DNA from: Escherichia coli
GTDB lineage: Bacteria; Pseudomonadota; Gammaproteobacteria; Enterobacterales; Enterobacteriaceae
Length of the DNA: 64,000 bases
Assembly (NCBI RefSeq): GCF_036507355.1
Contig: NZ_AP027877.1
Reading direction: 5' to 3' (one strand)
Shown: positions 9,001 through 15,000 of the stretch, piece after piece
Layout of the letters: each line of letters begins with the position of its first letter
Numbering within the stretch: the stretch's first letter is position 1
Position numbers: made by a program

Positions 9001-12000
9001 CGGACAAGCCATGTGGCAGTAGCGGCAGCCGATACAAACATCTTCATCAACCACCACAAAGCCATCTTCACGCTTATGCATTGCGCCGCTGGGGCAGACT
9101 TTTGTACATGCGGGGTCATCGCAATGGTTACAGGAGATGGAGAGATAATAAGAGAACACGTTCTGGTGCCAGACGCCATTATCTTCCTGCCAGTCGCCGC
9201 CAGCATATTCATAAATACGGCGGAAACTGACTTCCGGGCCAAGATCTTTAAAATCTTTGCACGCCAGTTCGCAGGTTTTACAGCCAGTACAGCGGCTGGA
9301 ATCGATAAAAAATCCATATTGTGTGGTCATGGGCTACTCCTTAAACCTTTTCGATCTGGACAAGATTGCTGTGCGACGGGTTTCCCTTTGCCAGCGGTGA
9401 AGGGCGGTGAGAGGTCAGAATATTGATACTGCCGCCGTGATCGACCCGGTCACCAAACATATCCGCTTTAAGCCACGCACCTTGCCCGATGGCGGTAACG
9501 CCAGGCAGAATACGCGGAGTCACTTTTGCGGCAATCAGCATTTCTCCATTATTGTTAAATACCCGCACGGTATCGCCATGACGGATACCGCGTGCCTGAG
9601 CATCAATGGGGTTGATCCACACCTCTTGTGGGCAGGCCTGCTGTAACACATCAATATTGCCGTAGCTGGAGTGGGTACGCGCTTTGTAGTGGAAGCCCGT
9701 TAACTGCAGTGGATAGGTTTTCCGCAGGGGATCGTCCCAGCCATCAAAACCTGGCGTATAAGCTGGAAGGGGATGAATAACTTCATCTTTTTTCAATTCC
9801 CAGGTATCTGCAATCTTCGCCAGTCGTTCAGAATAAATTTCGATTTTCCCCGAAGGTGTTTTCAACGGGTTTGCCTGTGGATCTTCACGGAATGCGCGGA
9901 AAGCGACGTAGTGTTCTTCCGGGCATTTTTTCTTAAAGATCCCGGTCGTTTTCATCTCCTCGTAGTCGGGCATCTCAGGGTTACGTTCCTTCGTTTTCGC
10001 ATGGAGATATTTGATCCATTCATGCTGACTGCGACCTTCAGTAAAGGTTTGATAAACGTCCGGTCCTAAGCGTTTGGCGACTTCACTCAGCATCCAGTAG
10101 ATGGGTTTGCGTTCAAATTTTGCTGAGGTTGCGGGTTGGGCGAGGATCACATAGCCCATATTCCCTGCAGATTCATGAGAGATAAGGTCTTCTTGCTCTG
10201 TTGGCATCAGGTCGGGCAACAGGATATCGCAATACTTAGCCGAGGCAGTCATGAAGTGGTCAATGCCAACAATCATCTCGCACTTGCTGTCATCCTGAAG
10301 CACCTCATGGGTGTGATTGATGTCGCCATGTTGATTGATCAATGTGTTACTGGCGTAGCACCATAAAAACTTGATGGGGACATCCAGTTTTTCTTTTCCA
10401 CGAACACCATCACGGGTCGCGGTCATTTCCGTACCATGGTCGATGGCATCTGTCCATGTAAAGACGGAAATCTGCGTTTTAACAGGATTCTCGAGCATCG
10501 GGAACCATTCTACCCCCAGATCCCAGCTACCTTCGCGTACGCCTGAGTTGCCGCCGTTTATGCCGACGTTACCGGTGAGAACGGAAAGCATGGCAATAGC
10601 GCGGGATGTTTGTTCGCCGTTGGAGTGTCGTTGTGGCCCCCAACCCTGACAAATATAAGCAGGTTTTGCTGAACCGATCTCTCGTGCCAACTGGATAATT
10701 TTTTCTGCCGGGATGCTGGTGATTTTTGCTGCCCATTCCGGCGTTTTAGCTATGCCGTCAGGCCCTTCGCCCAGAATATAGGCTTTATAATGCGCGTTAC
10801 GTGGTGCGTTGGCGGGCAGCGTTTTTTCATCGTAACCAACACAATATTTGTCGAGAAATGGTTGATCGACCATGTTTTCAGTAATCAGTACCCAGGCAAT
10901 CGCACAGGCCAGTGCGCCATCGGTGCCAGGGCGAATGGGCAGCCATTCATCTTCACGCCCGGCAGCTGTGTCGTTATAACGTGGATCGATGACGATCATG
11001 CGTGCGTTTGAACGTTCGCGGGCTTGCTCGACGTAGTAAGTGACACCACCGCCGCTCATCCGCGTTTCTGCCGGGTTATTTCCGAACATAACGACCAGTT
11101 TCGTATTGGCGATATCATCCGGGCTGTTGCCATCATTGGCACCGAACATATAACTCATTGCGGCACTGATCTGTGCGGTACTGTAGCTGCCATAGCGACT
11201 GAGAAAACCACCGCAAGAGTTCATCAGACGGTACGGGACGTTTGAGTTGGTGATGTTTCCGCCATCTACGCCTGTTCCATAGAGGACATGTACAGCCTCA
11301 TTGCCGTAATCTTTCAGGATCCGCCGAAGATTATCACTGATGGTATCCAGGGCTTCGTCCCAACTTATCCGTTCAAATTTACCTTCACCGCGCTTGCCGA
11401 CGCGCTTCATGGGATATTTCAACCTATCAGGATGATTCATCCGTCGGCGGATAGAGCGCCCGCGTAAACACGCGCGGACCTGATGATTACCGTAGACGTC
11501 GTCACCTGTCGTATCAGACTCCACCCAGTACACGGTGTCATCTTTCACATGCAAACGTAACAGACAGCGGCTCCCGCAGTTAACGGTGCAGGAACTCCAC
11601 ACCGCTTTCTCTTCTACCGGAGCCTCTGCCGCTCGGACCATTTGGGAAAACGGCAAAGTGAAAGCACTGCTTGCCAGCGCGAGACTGCCAAGTGCGGAGG
11701 TTTTCATCAGACTTCTACGGCTGATTTCAGCCTTCATGAGCGCCTCTGTGGTATGGATTTTCATCATTACTCACTTATTGCTTTTCAAACAAAATGTCAT
11801 GCCAGAATTTATGGTTGTAGTGGGTTATATTTTTTCGATCTCGACCAGATTCGTATGCTGCGGGTTTCCCTTCGCCAGTGGTGAAGGGCGCAGAGTGGTT
11901 AGCGTATTCACACAGCCTCCATGGTCGATTTTATCGCCAGACATATTGGCCTCGTGCCAGGCTCCCTGGCCCATAGCGCTAACTCCAGGGAGAATACGTG

Positions 12001-15000
12001 GTGTCACTTTGGCTGGTAGCCGAACTTCGCCACGATGGTTATACACCCGCACCATATCGCCGTTGGCAATCCCACGTTTCTGTGCGTCTATAGGGTTGAT
12101 CCACACCTCCTGACGGCAGGCAGCCTTCAGGACATCAATGTTGCCGTAGGTCGAGTGAGTACGGGATTTGTAATGGAAACCAAACAGTTGCAGTGGAAAG
12201 GTACTACGTTCAGGGGAGTCCCAGCCTTCAAAGGTTGAGGCATAAACTGGCAGTGGGCTTATCACTTCATCTTTTTCCAGTTCCCAGGTACGGGCAATTT
12301 CCGCCAGCTTGCTGGAATAAATTTCAATCTTACCGGAAGGTGTTTTAAGTGGATTTGCCTCGGGGTCGTCACGAAATGCTTTGTAGGCGACAAAATGACC
12401 ATTGGGATCTTTACGCTTATAGATACCCATTTTTTTCAGTTCGTCGTAAGACGGTAACGCCGGATCTTTGGCAAGCATTTTGGCGTACAGATGTTGTAAC
12501 CATTGTTCCTGCGTGCGACCTTCAGTGAACTTTTGATAGACGTCAGGTCCAAGACGTTTCGCGACCTCACTCAGGATCCAGTAAATCGGTTTACGTTCGA
12601 ATTTTTCGCTGGTGACTGGCTGGAGGAAAATGAGATATCCCATGTTACCGGCGTAGTCGTTAGGAATAATATCTTCCTGCTCAACGGTCATCAGGTCTGG
12701 CAGCAGAATGTCGGCATATTTTGCCGATGAGGTCATAAAGTTTTCGATGACCACAATCATTTCGCATTTCGATTCGTCCTGCAGAATTTCATGCGTTTTG
12801 TTGATGTCAGAATGCTGATTAACGAGGGTATTTCCCGCGTAATTCCAGATGAACTTAATGGGCACATCCAGTTTATCTTTGCCCCGGACACCGTCGCGGA
12901 TTGCCGTCATTTGTGGGCCATGATCGATAGCATCTGTCCAGCTGAAGCAGGAAATTGACGTTTTGACCGGATTATCCAGCACCGGCAGGCGCTCTATGGT
13001 AATGGTATAGGTCGATTCACGCGCGCCACTATTTCCGCCGCTGATGCCGACATTGCCCGTCAGAATAGGCAACATAGCAATAGCGCGTGCGGTCAGCTCG
13101 CCGTTTGCCTGGCGTTGTGGCCCCCAGCCCTGGCAGATATAAGCGGGTTTTGCTGTGCCAATTTCACGCGCCAGTTTGATGATACGGTCCACCGGGATAC
13201 CGGTAATTTGCGAAGCCCACTGCGGCGTTTTCGCTGTTTTATCGTCACCTTCACCAAGAATATAGGCTTTATAGTGACCATTTTTGGGTGCATCTGCGGG
13301 TAAGGTTTTTTCGTCATAGCCGACGCAGTATTTATCGAGAAAAGGTTGATCAACGAGATTTTCGTTAATCAATACCCAGGCAATACCCGCAACCAGCGCG
13401 GCATCGGTGCCCGGGCGAATAGGAAGCCATTCGTCTTCACGACCGGCAGCCGTATCGGTATATCGCGGATCGATAACAATCATTTTTGCGTTCGATTTTT
13501 CGCGGGCTTTTTCAAGAAGATAAGTGATGCCACCGCCGCTCATGCGGGTTTCTGCCGGGTTGTTACCAAACATCACGACCAGCTTGCTGTTTTCAATATC
13601 CGTGGTGCTGTTGCCATCATTACTGCCGTAGGTGTAGGGCATGGCACAGGAAATTTGCGCAGTGCTGTAGGAGCCATACTGATTGAGTGAACCGCCGTAG
13701 CAGTTCATCAGGCGTTTGACCGCCGAGGCTGATGGCGAAGAGCGGGTCATATTGCCGCCAACAATCCCCGAAGAGTACTGAATATATACAGCCTCATTGC
13801 CATATTGTTCGACGGTTTTTTTCAGGCTACTGGCGATAGTATCCAGGGCTTCATCCCAGCTAATCCGTTCGAATTTGCCTTCACCGCGTTTACCCACGCG
13901 TTTCATTGGGTAATTCAAGCGATCGGGATGATTAATACGCCGGCGGATGGAGCGACCGCGCAAACAGGCGCGTACTTGATGATTGCCATACTCATCGCTG
14001 CCGGTGTTGTCAGTTTCCACCCAGGCCACTTCATTATCTTTAACATGTAGACGAAGTGCACAGCGGCTACCACAGTTGACGGAACAGGCACCCCAGACCA
14101 CTTTTTCGCTGGCCTGTTGTACTGCTGCCGCTGCACTGCGCAGGGTGAACGGCAAAGAAAAACCGCCTGCAGCCAGCGCCAGAGAACCTATCGCGGTAGA
14201 TTTAACGAGTGTTCTGCGGCTGATGCCCACCATTCGTTCATTTTTGGACATAACTCACTCCCTGTTCTTTATCGTTATATAAAAGTTTATATATTGAATA
14301 TTTAGCGCGCTAACAATAGAGGGAGTCTACCCATTTTGGGTTAATAATTATTAATCCATATCAATAGAAGGGTATGAGTAATAAGGTGGGATTATGTTGT
14401 ATGTCCAAATCGCCGGATGTGTCGTATCCGGCGTGTAGTCGATAATGTATTACTGCGGTTCGGCAGGCGCGCCATCCTGGGTAGACTGCGCGGGAGCAGA
14501 GACGTTACCGCTGGTGGTGCGGGTGTAGAGAATTTTATGCGTATCATTAGCGCAATGCCCGACGACCTGGGAATCAGGCTGATCAACCTGGTCATTGGGT
14601 ACAATACTTAACGTGAAGCTGCTTTCGGGTACGCCATTATTGATAATGCGCTGTGATATATCGCTTTGTATGCGCTCACAGGATCCCGGCGCGGCGAGTA
14701 CCGCGGGTGAGGCGAGGGCGAGCAGAAGCGCGGCACAGCAGGTTGAGAGTTTCATCATAAGCTCCTTACGCGAAGATAACTTCTTTAAGCATAGCATTTA
14801 ACGTGTAAAGTACTGTATTTGCTACTATGATTGAGAATCATCTCTACTCTCTGGTGACTGATGTGAAATACAAATTACTGCCATGCTTACTCGCGATATT
14901 ACTCACAGGATGTGACCGCACAGAGGTAACACTTTCATTTACTCCTGAGATGGCCAGTTTCTCTAATGAATTCGATTTTGATCCGCTGCGTGGTCCGGTA

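What the first reader, a model, noticed from the sequence alone, without database searches (positions are those of the whole stretch)
9341..14251. Tandem paralogous Mo-enzyme genes ynfE and ynfF
Two adjacent ~808-codon genes with twin-arginine signals are colinear and closely similar, an old tandem duplication. Both are intact here; such pairs can recombine to give chimeras or deletions.
Basis: established knowledge. Interest (0 to 1): 0.2.

Follow-up and report, generated by a model that had tools for sequence, protein, structure and literature searches.

The report
Known ynfE/ynfF paralogue pair, both intact
These are the two well-known neighbouring sister genes (ynfE and ynfF) for the molybdenum-containing catalytic subunit of the E. 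coli selenate/tellurate reductase; both are intact here and show no hybrid junction, so the finding is correct but ordinary.

Summary
Two 808-codon ORFs lie head-to-tail on the minus strand: ynfE at 11825-14251 and ynfF at 9341-11767. They are colinear, 71% identical in protein and 70% in DNA. Each has a twin-arginine motif, the Cys group and the conserved Mo-ligand serine. [quoted passage not shown]

The duplication is old. dS is about 2.1, third-position identity is 47%, and no identical run exceeds 17 nt. On a tree, YnfF is sister to the whole YnfE clade of Enterobacterales. There is no gene-conversion tract or hybrid junction in this window.

Ten of 5,426 complete E. coli genomes carry one of two in-frame, in-register ynfE'-'ynfF fusions. 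Their crossovers lie in 8-nt and 14-nt identity islands. About 10% of the genomes (ST131-like) have a ynfF pseudogene, and Escherichia whittamii has only ynfE.

Verdict: already known, low interest.

The parts
11825..14251 (-). ynfE, upstream paralogue: 808-aa Tat-exported molybdopterin (bis-MGD) catalytic subunit of selenate/tellurate reductase
   Evidence: ORF; translation. NCBIfam NF041885 scores 1796 bits against a cut-off of 1675. Pfam finds Molybdop_Fe4S4, Molybdopterin and Molydop_binding. RefSeq annotation of the 99.2%-identical locus names it ynfE.
9341..11767 (-). ynfF, downstream paralogue (808-aa ORF; the RefSeq-style start is at 11764, giving 807 aa)
   Evidence: ORF; translation. 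NCBIfam NF041884 scores 1775 bits against a cut-off of 1650. Same three Pfam domains as ynfE. Annotated ynfF in RefSeq.
11768..11824 (-). 57-nt ynfE-ynfF spacer holding the ynfF ribosome-binding region. The -60..+24 region of ynfF was shown in K-12 to confer RyhB repression.
   Evidence: Sequence. RyhB reporter result in PMC4666370. No Rfam family matches here.
14201..14221 (-). YnfE twin-arginine motif SRRTLVK
11702..11722 (-). YnfF twin-arginine motif SRRSLMK
14351..14364 (-). FNR-box-like site TTGATATGGATTAA (1 mismatch to TTGAT-N4-ATCAA), about 106 nt upstream of the ynfE ATG; candidate anaerobic activation site of the operon promoter
   Evidence: Pattern search; sequence. No sigma-70 consensus promoter was found, as expected for an activator-dependent promoter. 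Function is inferred, not tested.
8713..9330 (-). ynfG, four-cluster Fe-S electron-transfer subunit
   Evidence: TIGR02951 DMSO_dmsB scores 264 bits against a cut-off of 214. RefSeq annotation.
7857..8711 (-). ynfH, membrane anchor / quinol-oxidising subunit (284 aa; the longer 364-aa ORF from 8951 is an upstream extension)
   Evidence: Pfam DmsC, E = 1.4e-127, covers residues 81-354 of the long ORF. RefSeq coordinates.
7200..7814 (-). dmsD, Tat proofreading chaperone that binds the DmsA, YnfE and YnfF signal peptides
   Evidence: NF008632 scores 347 bits against a cut-off of 162. RefSeq annotation. Signal-peptide binding reported in PMC5203670.
13548..13561 (-). 14-nt island AACCCGGCAGAAAC, identical in ynfE and in ynfF (11064-11077). 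It is the crossover site of chimera allele 2 in other E. coli genomes. There is no junction in this window.
13098..13105 (-). 8-nt island AACGGCGA, identical in ynfE and in ynfF (10614-10621). It is the crossover site of chimera allele 1 in other E. coli genomes. There is no junction in this window.

Best explanation
The interval holds ynfE and ynfF, the first two genes of the ynfEFGH-dmsD operon of an E. coli-group chromosome. Each encodes a roughly 90-kDa catalytic subunit of the DmsA/YnfE/YnfF branch of the DMSO-reductase family. Each has a twin-arginine signal peptide read by the chaperone DmsD, an N-terminal Cys group for a [4Fe-4S] cluster, and the serine that ligates molybdenum in this family. 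By analogy with DmsABC, and from published genetics, either subunit docks on YnfG (Fe-S) and YnfH (quinol-oxidising anchor). The resulting periplasm-facing reductase reduces selenate and tellurate. YnfE carries most of the activity in Salmonella; the preferred substrate of YnfF is still unclear. The two genes descend from an ancient duplication. It is older than the radiation of the YnfE orthologues sampled across Enterobacterales. Both copies have since evolved under purifying selection without detectable gene conversion. In this window both are intact and unrecombined. Shown here: sequence features, family membership, operon context, divergence measures and phylogeny. Inferred from the literature: enzymology and regulation.
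For: Two colinear 808-aa ORFs with 71% protein and 70% nucleotide identity.

Each passes its own NCBIfam exception model and fails the other's. Both have the three Pfam molybdopterin-oxidoreductase domains.

The locus is 99.2% identical and fully syntenic with RefSeq E. coli loci annotated ynfE, ynfF, ynfG, ynfH and dmsD.

Tat motifs, the C-x3-C-x3-C-x31-C group and the YSTAQ serine are present in both. That serine aligns with Ser147 of R. sphaeroides DMSO reductase 1EU1.

Age of the duplication:
- pS = 0.70, dS about 2.1, dN = 0.21.
- Third-position identity is 47% and is flat along the gene; the longest identical run is 17 nt.
- The NJ tree places the YnfF clade as sister to a 100%-supported YnfE clade that includes Budvicia, Serratia and Rahnella.
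- YnfE and YnfF share three indels relative to DmsA.
- At 14 sites YnfF keeps the DmsA state that all YnfE orthologues have lost.

YnfE orthologues are 79-96% identical and YnfF orthologues 89-91% identical across genera, against 71% between the paralogues.

Function from papers:
- PMC5203670: YnfE is the main selenate reductase, YnfF is minor, they share 71% identity in Salmonella, and DmsD binds both signal peptides.
- PMC12724226: a delta-ynfEF mutant loses selenate reduction.
- PMC12096835 cites the tellurate work.
Against: Nothing contradicts the identification.

Caveats:
- The tree is neighbour-joining with one outgroup, and YnfF sits on a long stem (0.17). Long-branch attraction towards the root cannot be formally excluded.
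- YnfF was found only in Escherichia, Salmonella, Citrobacter amalonaticus and Pseudocitrobacter among the 80 loci fetched. An old origin therefore implies many losses, or a period spent elsewhere.
- No activity, export or expression was measured here.
Confidence: 0.95

Rival explanations
1. The pair is a recent duplicate, or is being homogenised by gene conversion, so that parts of the two genes are near-identical and a hybrid tract is hidden in this window.
For: None was found. The locally highest nucleotide identity is 82% at codons 101-140, which coincides with 95% protein identity.
Against: Third-position identity stays between 35% and 60% in every 40-codon window. Same-codon use among identical residues is 52%, against 43% expected from codon usage alone. 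The longest identical run is 17 nt, and dS is about 2.1. Each protein scores about 300 bits lower on the other paralogue's model.
Confidence: 0.02
2. ynfF is a young copy of ynfE. It arose in the Escherichia-Salmonella-Citrobacter ancestor and then diverged very fast. Its basal position on the tree is a long-branch artefact.
For: YnfF occurs only in that group among the sampled loci. It has a long stem branch and a private 4-5-residue deletion.
Against: YnfF keeps DmsA-type states that every sampled YnfE has lost, including those of Budvicia and Serratia. There are 14 such fixed sites spread along the protein. YnfF also keeps the CTVNCGSRC motif and a DmsA-like signal-peptide n-region (PMC5203670). 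YnfF orthologues evolve no faster than YnfE orthologues today: 91% against 87% identity between E. coli and Salmonella.
Confidence: 0.1
3. The adjacency did not arise by in-situ tandem duplication. One A-subunit gene was inserted next to the other by recombination or transfer between two related operons.
For: ynfE sits upstream of a DmsA-type gene in Serratia, Rahnella and Ewingella. It is followed directly by dmsD in many Enterobacter and Lelliottia. Budvicia has two full A-G-H units. This locus has therefore been rebuilt repeatedly.
Against: YnfE and YnfF are each other's closest relatives (100% bootstrap, three shared indels). They are always in the same order and position where both occur. 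A tandem duplication is the simpler account.
Confidence: 0.15
4. ynfF in this genome is a redundant gene on its way to decay and contributes nothing.
For: YnfF contributes little to selenate reduction in Salmonella (PMC5203670). About 527 of 5,426 complete E. coli genomes carry a ynfF with two internal deletions. A pangenome study lists ynfE and ynfF among the most often pseudogenised metabolic genes (PMC13322260).
Against: Here the ORF is full length with all cofactor motifs. dN/dS between the paralogues is about 0.1. YnfF orthologues are 89-91% conserved across four genera. ynfF has its own RyhB-controlled translation start (PMC4666370).
Confidence: 0.05

Closest known systems
E. coli K-12 ynfEFGH-dmsD operon (ynfE b1587, ynfF b1588; gene numbers from my own knowledge)
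   Same: Same genes, order, lengths and spacing. The DNA is 98-99% identical to RefSeq E. coli loci carrying these names.
   Different: Only allelic differences. No complete RefSeq E. coli genome exceeds 99.3% identity over ynfEF.
Salmonella enterica ynfEFGH-dmsD selenate reductase (STM1498 = ynfF, per PMC5203670)
   Same: Same five-gene architecture. YnfE is 87% and YnfF 91% identical to the window proteins. The same 71% YnfE/YnfF identity is reported there.
   Different: The ynfE-ynfF spacer is longer (about 141 nt against 57 nt) and contains a GC-rich hairpin-like repeat.
E. coli DmsABC dimethyl sulfoxide reductase (DmsA)
   Same: Same family (TIGR02166), same domains, Tat signal, type II Cys group and Mo-ligand serine, and the same chaperone DmsD. 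Identity to DmsA is 65-68%.
   Different: YnfE and YnfF share three indels that DmsA lacks. Both fail the DmsA-specific model: 1343 and 1322 bits against a cut-off of 1600. The reported substrates also differ.
Enterobacter cloacae SrnABCD selenate reductase (single-A form)
   Same: It is a YnfE-type catalytic gene followed by ynfG-, ynfH- and dmsD-like genes. It complements E. coli delta-ynfEF (PMC12724226). This matches the single-A architecture seen in many genera.
   Different: It has no second paralogue.

Membership tests
DmsA/YnfE/YnfF subfamily of DMSO-reductase-family molybdoenzymes (TIGR02166) | Full-length match above the curated cut-off, with the three domains Fe4S4, molybdopterin and MGD-binding | tested here: met
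   1396 and 1287 bits against a cut-off of 778. Pfam PF04879, PF00384 and PF01568 are found in both proteins.
YnfE (NF041885) and YnfF (NF041884) as distinct orthologue groups | Each protein passes its own exception-level model and not the other's | tested here: met
   YnfE scores 1796 (cut-off 1675) on its own model and 1476 (cut-off 1650) on the YnfF model. YnfF scores 1775 (cut-off 1650) on its own model and 1483 (cut-off 1675) on the YnfE model. On the tree each groups with its cross-genus orthologues at 100% bootstrap.
Tat-exported redox enzymes | N-terminal S/T-R-R-x-F/L-x-K motif followed by a hydrophobic region | tested here: met
   SRRTLVK and SRRSLMK, each followed by an Ala/Leu/Gly-rich stretch. 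Export itself is not testable here.
DMSO-reductase family with a type II Cys group (FS0 cluster) | C-x3-C-x3-C-xn-C near the mature N-terminus | tested here: met
   CSVNCGSRC...C at YnfE residue 56 and CTVNCGSRC...C at YnfF residue 60. The motif definition is from my own knowledge of the family.
Ser-ligated Mo enzymes (DMSO reductase type) | Serine aligned with the Mo ligand Ser147 of Rhodobacter DMSO reductase | tested here: met
   Ser196 of YSTAQ in both proteins. In YnfE it aligns with residue 147 of 1EU1 by counting in the printed alignment. The identity of Ser147 as the ligand is from my own knowledge.
ynfEFGH-dmsD operon | A-A-B-C-chaperone gene order on one strand with short spacers | tested here: met
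   Spacers are 57, 10, 1 and 42 nt.
Selenate/tellurate reductase | Reduction of selenate or tellurate that depends on these genes | not testable with these tools
   Literature only: PMC5203670, PMC12724226, and the Fujita et al. 2021 tellurate study (J Biochem 169:477) as cited within PMC12096835.
Concertedly evolving or recently recombined tandem repeat | Long near-identical tracts or a hybrid junction between the copies | tested here: not met
   Longest identical run is 17 nt; synonymous identity is flat; dS is about 2.1.

The most novel reading that the evidence does not exclude
The two natural in-frame ynfE'-'ynfF fusion alleles may encode working hybrid catalytic subunits. They were found in other E. 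coli genomes, with the YnfE N-terminal 230 or 382 residues joined to the YnfF remainder. Such hybrids would carry the YnfE signal peptide and promoter-proximal translation start. They would have lost the RyhB-controlled ynfF leader. They would be natural domain-swap experiments on substrate specificity in this enzyme family. In addition, the single ynfE of Escherichia whittamii may be the end product of the same kind of unequal exchange, at the last 10 shared nucleotides.
Probability: 0.35. Interest if true: 0.35.

Novelty: already known. Interest (0 to 1): 0.15.

Why it matters
For this window it matters little. The finding is a correct reading of a textbook paralogue pair, and nothing is broken or rearranged.

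The wider survey adds three modest points:
- Even at 70% DNA identity, the pair does occasionally collapse into an in-frame hybrid through 8-14-nt microhomologies. Automatic annotation then names the product inconsistently: a generic family name for one allele and 'ynfF' for the other.
- ynfF is a pseudogene in roughly a tenth of complete E. coli genomes, including ST131-like strains. This is relevant to studies that measure 'ynfF' expression in such strains.
- The number and partners of the catalytic gene at this locus vary widely across Enterobacterales.

Tried and rejected
1. Gene-conversion or hybrid tracts inside the window. Sliding-window nucleotide, protein, third-position and same-codon identities showed none.

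2. Mosaic origin of YnfF (DmsA-like N-terminus joined to a YnfE-like body). A sliding comparison with DmsA and YnfE groups showed DmsA-like sites scattered along the protein rather than in a block. I rejected a mosaic as the explanation.

3. E x F recombination as the cause of the ST131-type ynfF lesion. It is instead two internal deletions, of 274 and 580 bp, without microhomology, and ynfE is untouched.

4. E x F recombination in strains AZ 191 and FDAARGOS_1285. These are out-of-register or E-to-ynfG deletions, not homologous exchanges.

5. A search for E. whittamii-like single-copy loci among 'E. coli' records, using L005 as query. No close relative is in that collection, and the top rows were ST131-type genomes joined by the tool's distance rule. 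The result is uninformative.

6. Solved structures. None exists for YnfE, YnfF or DmsA; the nearest are TorA and DorA at E = 1e-75.

7. Rfam. No RNA family matches in 7-15 kb.

8. Promoter and terminator consensus scans upstream of ynfE and downstream of dmsD. Nothing useful was found.

9. A literature search for earlier reports of ynfE/ynfF chimeras. One search failed on syntax. The others found pseudogene statistics only.
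Full report
**Observation**

The ORF table lists two 808-aa ORFs on the minus strand, 11825..14251 and 9341..11767, separated by 57 nt. 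Their translations align end to end with 568/801 identities (71%), 85% positives and only 9 gap positions. Only the strand (minus) was missing.

**Identity of the genes**

- The 8-kb stretch 7000-15000 matches 5,424 of 5,426 complete E. coli genomes. The best match is 99.2%, over loci annotated ynfE, ynfF, ynfG, ynfH and dmsD.
- The annotation of one such locus maps one-to-one onto the window:
  - dmsD 7200-7814
  - ynfH 7857-8711
  - ynfG 8713-9330
  - ynfF 9341-11764
  - ynfE 11825-14251
  - ynfD and ynfC lie upstream
- NCBIfam gives each protein a score above its own exception-level model and below the other's. YnfE scores 1796 (cut-off 1675) on its own model and 1476 (cut-off 1650) on the YnfF model. 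YnfF scores 1775 (cut-off 1650) on its own model and 1483 (cut-off 1675) on the YnfE model.
- Pfam finds the Fe4S4, molybdopterin and MGD-binding domains in both proteins. It also finds DmsB-, DmsC- and NarJ/DmsD-type domains in the three downstream products.
- Both proteins have a twin-arginine motif (SRRTLVK, SRRSLMK), a C-x3-C-x3-C-x31-C group and a YSTAQ serine at residue 196.
- In the alignment of YnfE to Rhodobacter DMSO reductase 1EU1, that serine falls on residue 147, the Mo ligand of that enzyme by my own knowledge.
- No solved structure exists for YnfE, YnfF or DmsA.

**Mechanism**

This part comes from the literature and by analogy with DmsABC; it was not tested here.

- In Salmonella the operon encodes a membrane-bound, periplasm-facing selenate reductase. 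YnfE is the main catalytic subunit, YnfF contributes little, and DmsD binds the signal peptides of DmsA, YnfE and YnfF (PMC5203670).
[quoted passage not shown] A single YnfE-type gene from Enterobacter cloacae restores the activity, presumably by docking on YnfG and YnfH (PMC12724226).
- Tellurate reduction by ynfEF is cited in PMC12096835.
- ynfF translation is repressed by the sRNA RyhB through the -60..+24 region (PMC4666370). In this window that region is the ynfE-ynfF spacer and the first codons of ynfF.
- An FNR-box-like site, TTGATATGGATTAA, lies about 106 nt upstream of ynfE. This fits an anaerobically activated promoter. No sigma-70 consensus promoter is present.

**Age of the duplication**

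- Nucleotide identity is 70%. By codon position it is 79%, 84% and 47%.
- Nei-Gojobori estimates are pS = 0.70 (dS about 2.1, saturated) and dN = 0.21.
- Among identical residues, 52% use the same codon, against 43% expected from codon usage alone.
- No 40-codon window shows raised synonymous identity.
- The longest in-register identical run is 17 nt.
- There is therefore no recent conversion tract and no hybrid junction in this window.

A scan of one genome per species with YnfE returned 80 loci. I mapped them with tblastn.

- YnfE orthologues are 79-96% identical to the window protein. They reach as far as Serratia, Rahnella and Budvicia.
- YnfF orthologues (89-91%) occur only in two Salmonella subspecies, Citrobacter amalonaticus and Pseudocitrobacter. 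In each case the gene lies between ynfE and ynfG.
- I built a neighbour-joining tree from 49 sequences and 793 columns, with 100 bootstraps, rooted on K-12 DmsA. It places the YnfF clade as sister to a 100%-supported YnfE clade, and YnfE+YnfF is itself 100% supported.
- YnfE and YnfF share three indels absent from DmsA.
- At 62 sites the DmsA and YnfE groups are each fixed but differ. YnfF agrees with YnfE at 28, with DmsA at 14 and with neither at 20. The 14 DmsA-like sites are scattered along the protein.
- YnfF also keeps the DmsA-like CTVNCGSRC motif and signal-peptide n-region.
- These retained ancestral states argue that YnfF split from YnfE before the sampled YnfE genes diverged. 'Old tandem duplication' is therefore supported. 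The caveats are the long YnfF stem, the simple tree method and the patchy distribution of YnfF.

**Chimeras and deletions**

- I built a 3,000-nt composite query. It joined ynfH, ynfG and the last 300 nt of ynfF to the first 300 nt of ynfE and its upstream DNA. The tool's joining rule merges the two halves only if a single A gene lies between them.
- Twelve of 5,426 genomes qualified. Ten of them carry a 2,427-nt, in-register, uninterrupted ynfE'-'ynfF fusion followed by ynfG at the normal 10-nt spacing.
- Allele 1 (WP_104457354.1) occurs in ECONIH4, six 0H-series genomes and CAVP776. It switches from E-type to F-type inside the shared octamer AACGGCGA (ynfE nt 1147-1154). 730 of 748 diagnostic sites fit a single switch.
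- Allele 2 (WP_256683566.1) occurs in JCC-EE 7 and FELIX_MS533. It switches inside the shared 14-mer AACCCGGCAGAAAC (nt 691-704). 727 of 746 diagnostic sites fit.
- Both islands are present and unrecombined in the window, at 13098-13105/10614-10621 and 13548-13561/11064-11077.
- Allele 1 falls just below both NCBIfam cut-offs (1643 against 1650, and 1616 against 1675), which explains its generic RefSeq name. Allele 2 just passes the YnfF model (1674 against 1650).
- The other two genomes have non-homologous deletions.
- Chimeras therefore exist, but they are rare and arise at microhomologies. This is expected from the lack of long identical runs.

**Other variants met on the way**

- The E-F junction is present in 5,288 genomes, but a 580-bp internal ynfF segment is present in only 4,761. 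About 527 genomes therefore lack the segment.
- The example I examined (strain '131') has two internal ynfF deletions of 274 and 580 bp without microhomology, and an intact ynfE.
- This agrees with a pangenome study that lists ynfE and ynfF among the most frequently pseudogenised metabolic genes (PMC13322260).
- An integrase-bearing element interrupts ynfE in some genomes. IS1 has removed most of the pair in another.

**Escherichia whittamii**

- Its locus is syntenic. Flanks and ynfE are both about 87% identical to the window in DNA.
- It has a single A gene that is E-type throughout (96% protein identity; YnfE model 1788 bits).
- The last two codons, the stop and the spacer are the type found before ynfG. 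The switch falls within the shared decamer AGATCGAAAA.
- This is what loss of exactly one 2,484-nt repeat unit would leave.
- However, every single-A species has the same A-ynfG junction. The sequence alone therefore cannot distinguish a secondary deletion from an ancestral single copy.
- The presence of orthologous ynfF in E. coli and Salmonella favours deletion.

**Comparison with what is known, and verdict**

The pair is the ynfE/ynfF pair of the E. coli and Salmonella ynfEFGH-dmsD operon. Every defining feature that could be tested was met. Only enzymatic activity and export remain untestable here. The finding is correct, already known, and of low interest for this window.

The most novel reading left open is that the natural fusion alleles are functional hybrid enzymes that have escaped RyhB control. 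That concerns other genomes, not this one.

Noticed in passing
L086-L090 (E. coli ECONIH4, 0H26, CAVP776, JCC-EE 7, FELIX_MS533), locus positions 2001-4427; crossover islands at window 13098-13105/10614-10621 and 13548-13561/11064-11077: Ten of 5,426 complete E. coli genomes carry one of two in-frame, in-register ynfE'-'ynfF fusion genes (808 aa). The crossovers lie in 8-nt and 14-nt identity islands. RefSeq names one allele generically and the other 'ynfF'.
   Followed up: yes
L002 (E. coli strain 131) 2501-4070; deleted segments correspond to window 9423-9696 and 10471-11050: ynfF is a pseudogene with two internal deletions (274 and 580 bp, no microhomology) in about 527 of 5,426 complete E. 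coli genomes, including ST131-like strains. ynfE stays intact. A published study measured 'ynfF' expression in the ST131 strain EC958 (PMC12096835).
   Followed up: partly
L005 (Escherichia whittamii) 7001-9440: This syntenic locus has only one A gene. It is pure YnfE-type up to the last 10 shared nucleotides and is then joined to the ynfG-proximal end. This is consistent with loss of exactly one 2,484-nt repeat unit, but an ancestral single copy is not excluded.
   Followed up: partly
L006-L084 (80 Enterobacterales loci): Locus architecture varies widely. There are ynfE-ynfG-ynfH-dmsD forms (many genera) and ynfE-dmsD forms without G/H (several Enterobacter, Lelliottia, Yokenella). Serratia, Rahnella and Ewingella have ynfE upstream of a DmsA-type gene plus B, C and D. 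Budvicia has two A-G-H units.
   Followed up: partly
L006, L014, L017, L025, L032, L038: Several Enterobacter and Kluyvera draft contigs end 2-220 nt after the ynfE stop. This suggests that a repeated sequence just downstream breaks the assemblies. L014, L017, L025, L032 and L038 show the start of ynfG there.
   Followed up: no
L003 (E. coli CEA224S) 7519-9199; corresponds to window about 12855: An element carrying a site-specific integrase interrupts ynfE in some E. coli genomes, leaving a 3' fragment of the gene.
   Followed up: no
window 19000-42000: This is an IS-rich, prophage-derived stretch. Features under the best-matching E. coli loci include terminase, tail fibre, exonuclease and IS66. 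Rfam finds two cspA-type thermoregulator leaders (28809-29201, 31711-32096) and IS009 RNA (36073-36271). Only 172 genomes match at least 80% of it in one place.
   Followed up: no
window 48446-48658 (+): Full-length match to the Hfq-binding sRNA family STnc560 (277 bits).
   Followed up: no
window 9341-14251 and 7000-15000: No complete RefSeq E. coli genome exceeds 99.3% identity here, and most are at 98.5%. The source is therefore an E. coli-group lineage not represented exactly in that collection. I did not determine which.
   Followed up: no
window 11535-12113 (+) and 13346-13690 (+): Antisense ORFs of 192 and 114 aa lie inside ynfE and across the E-F spacer. They are probably chance ORFs opposite a long coding region.
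   Followed up: no
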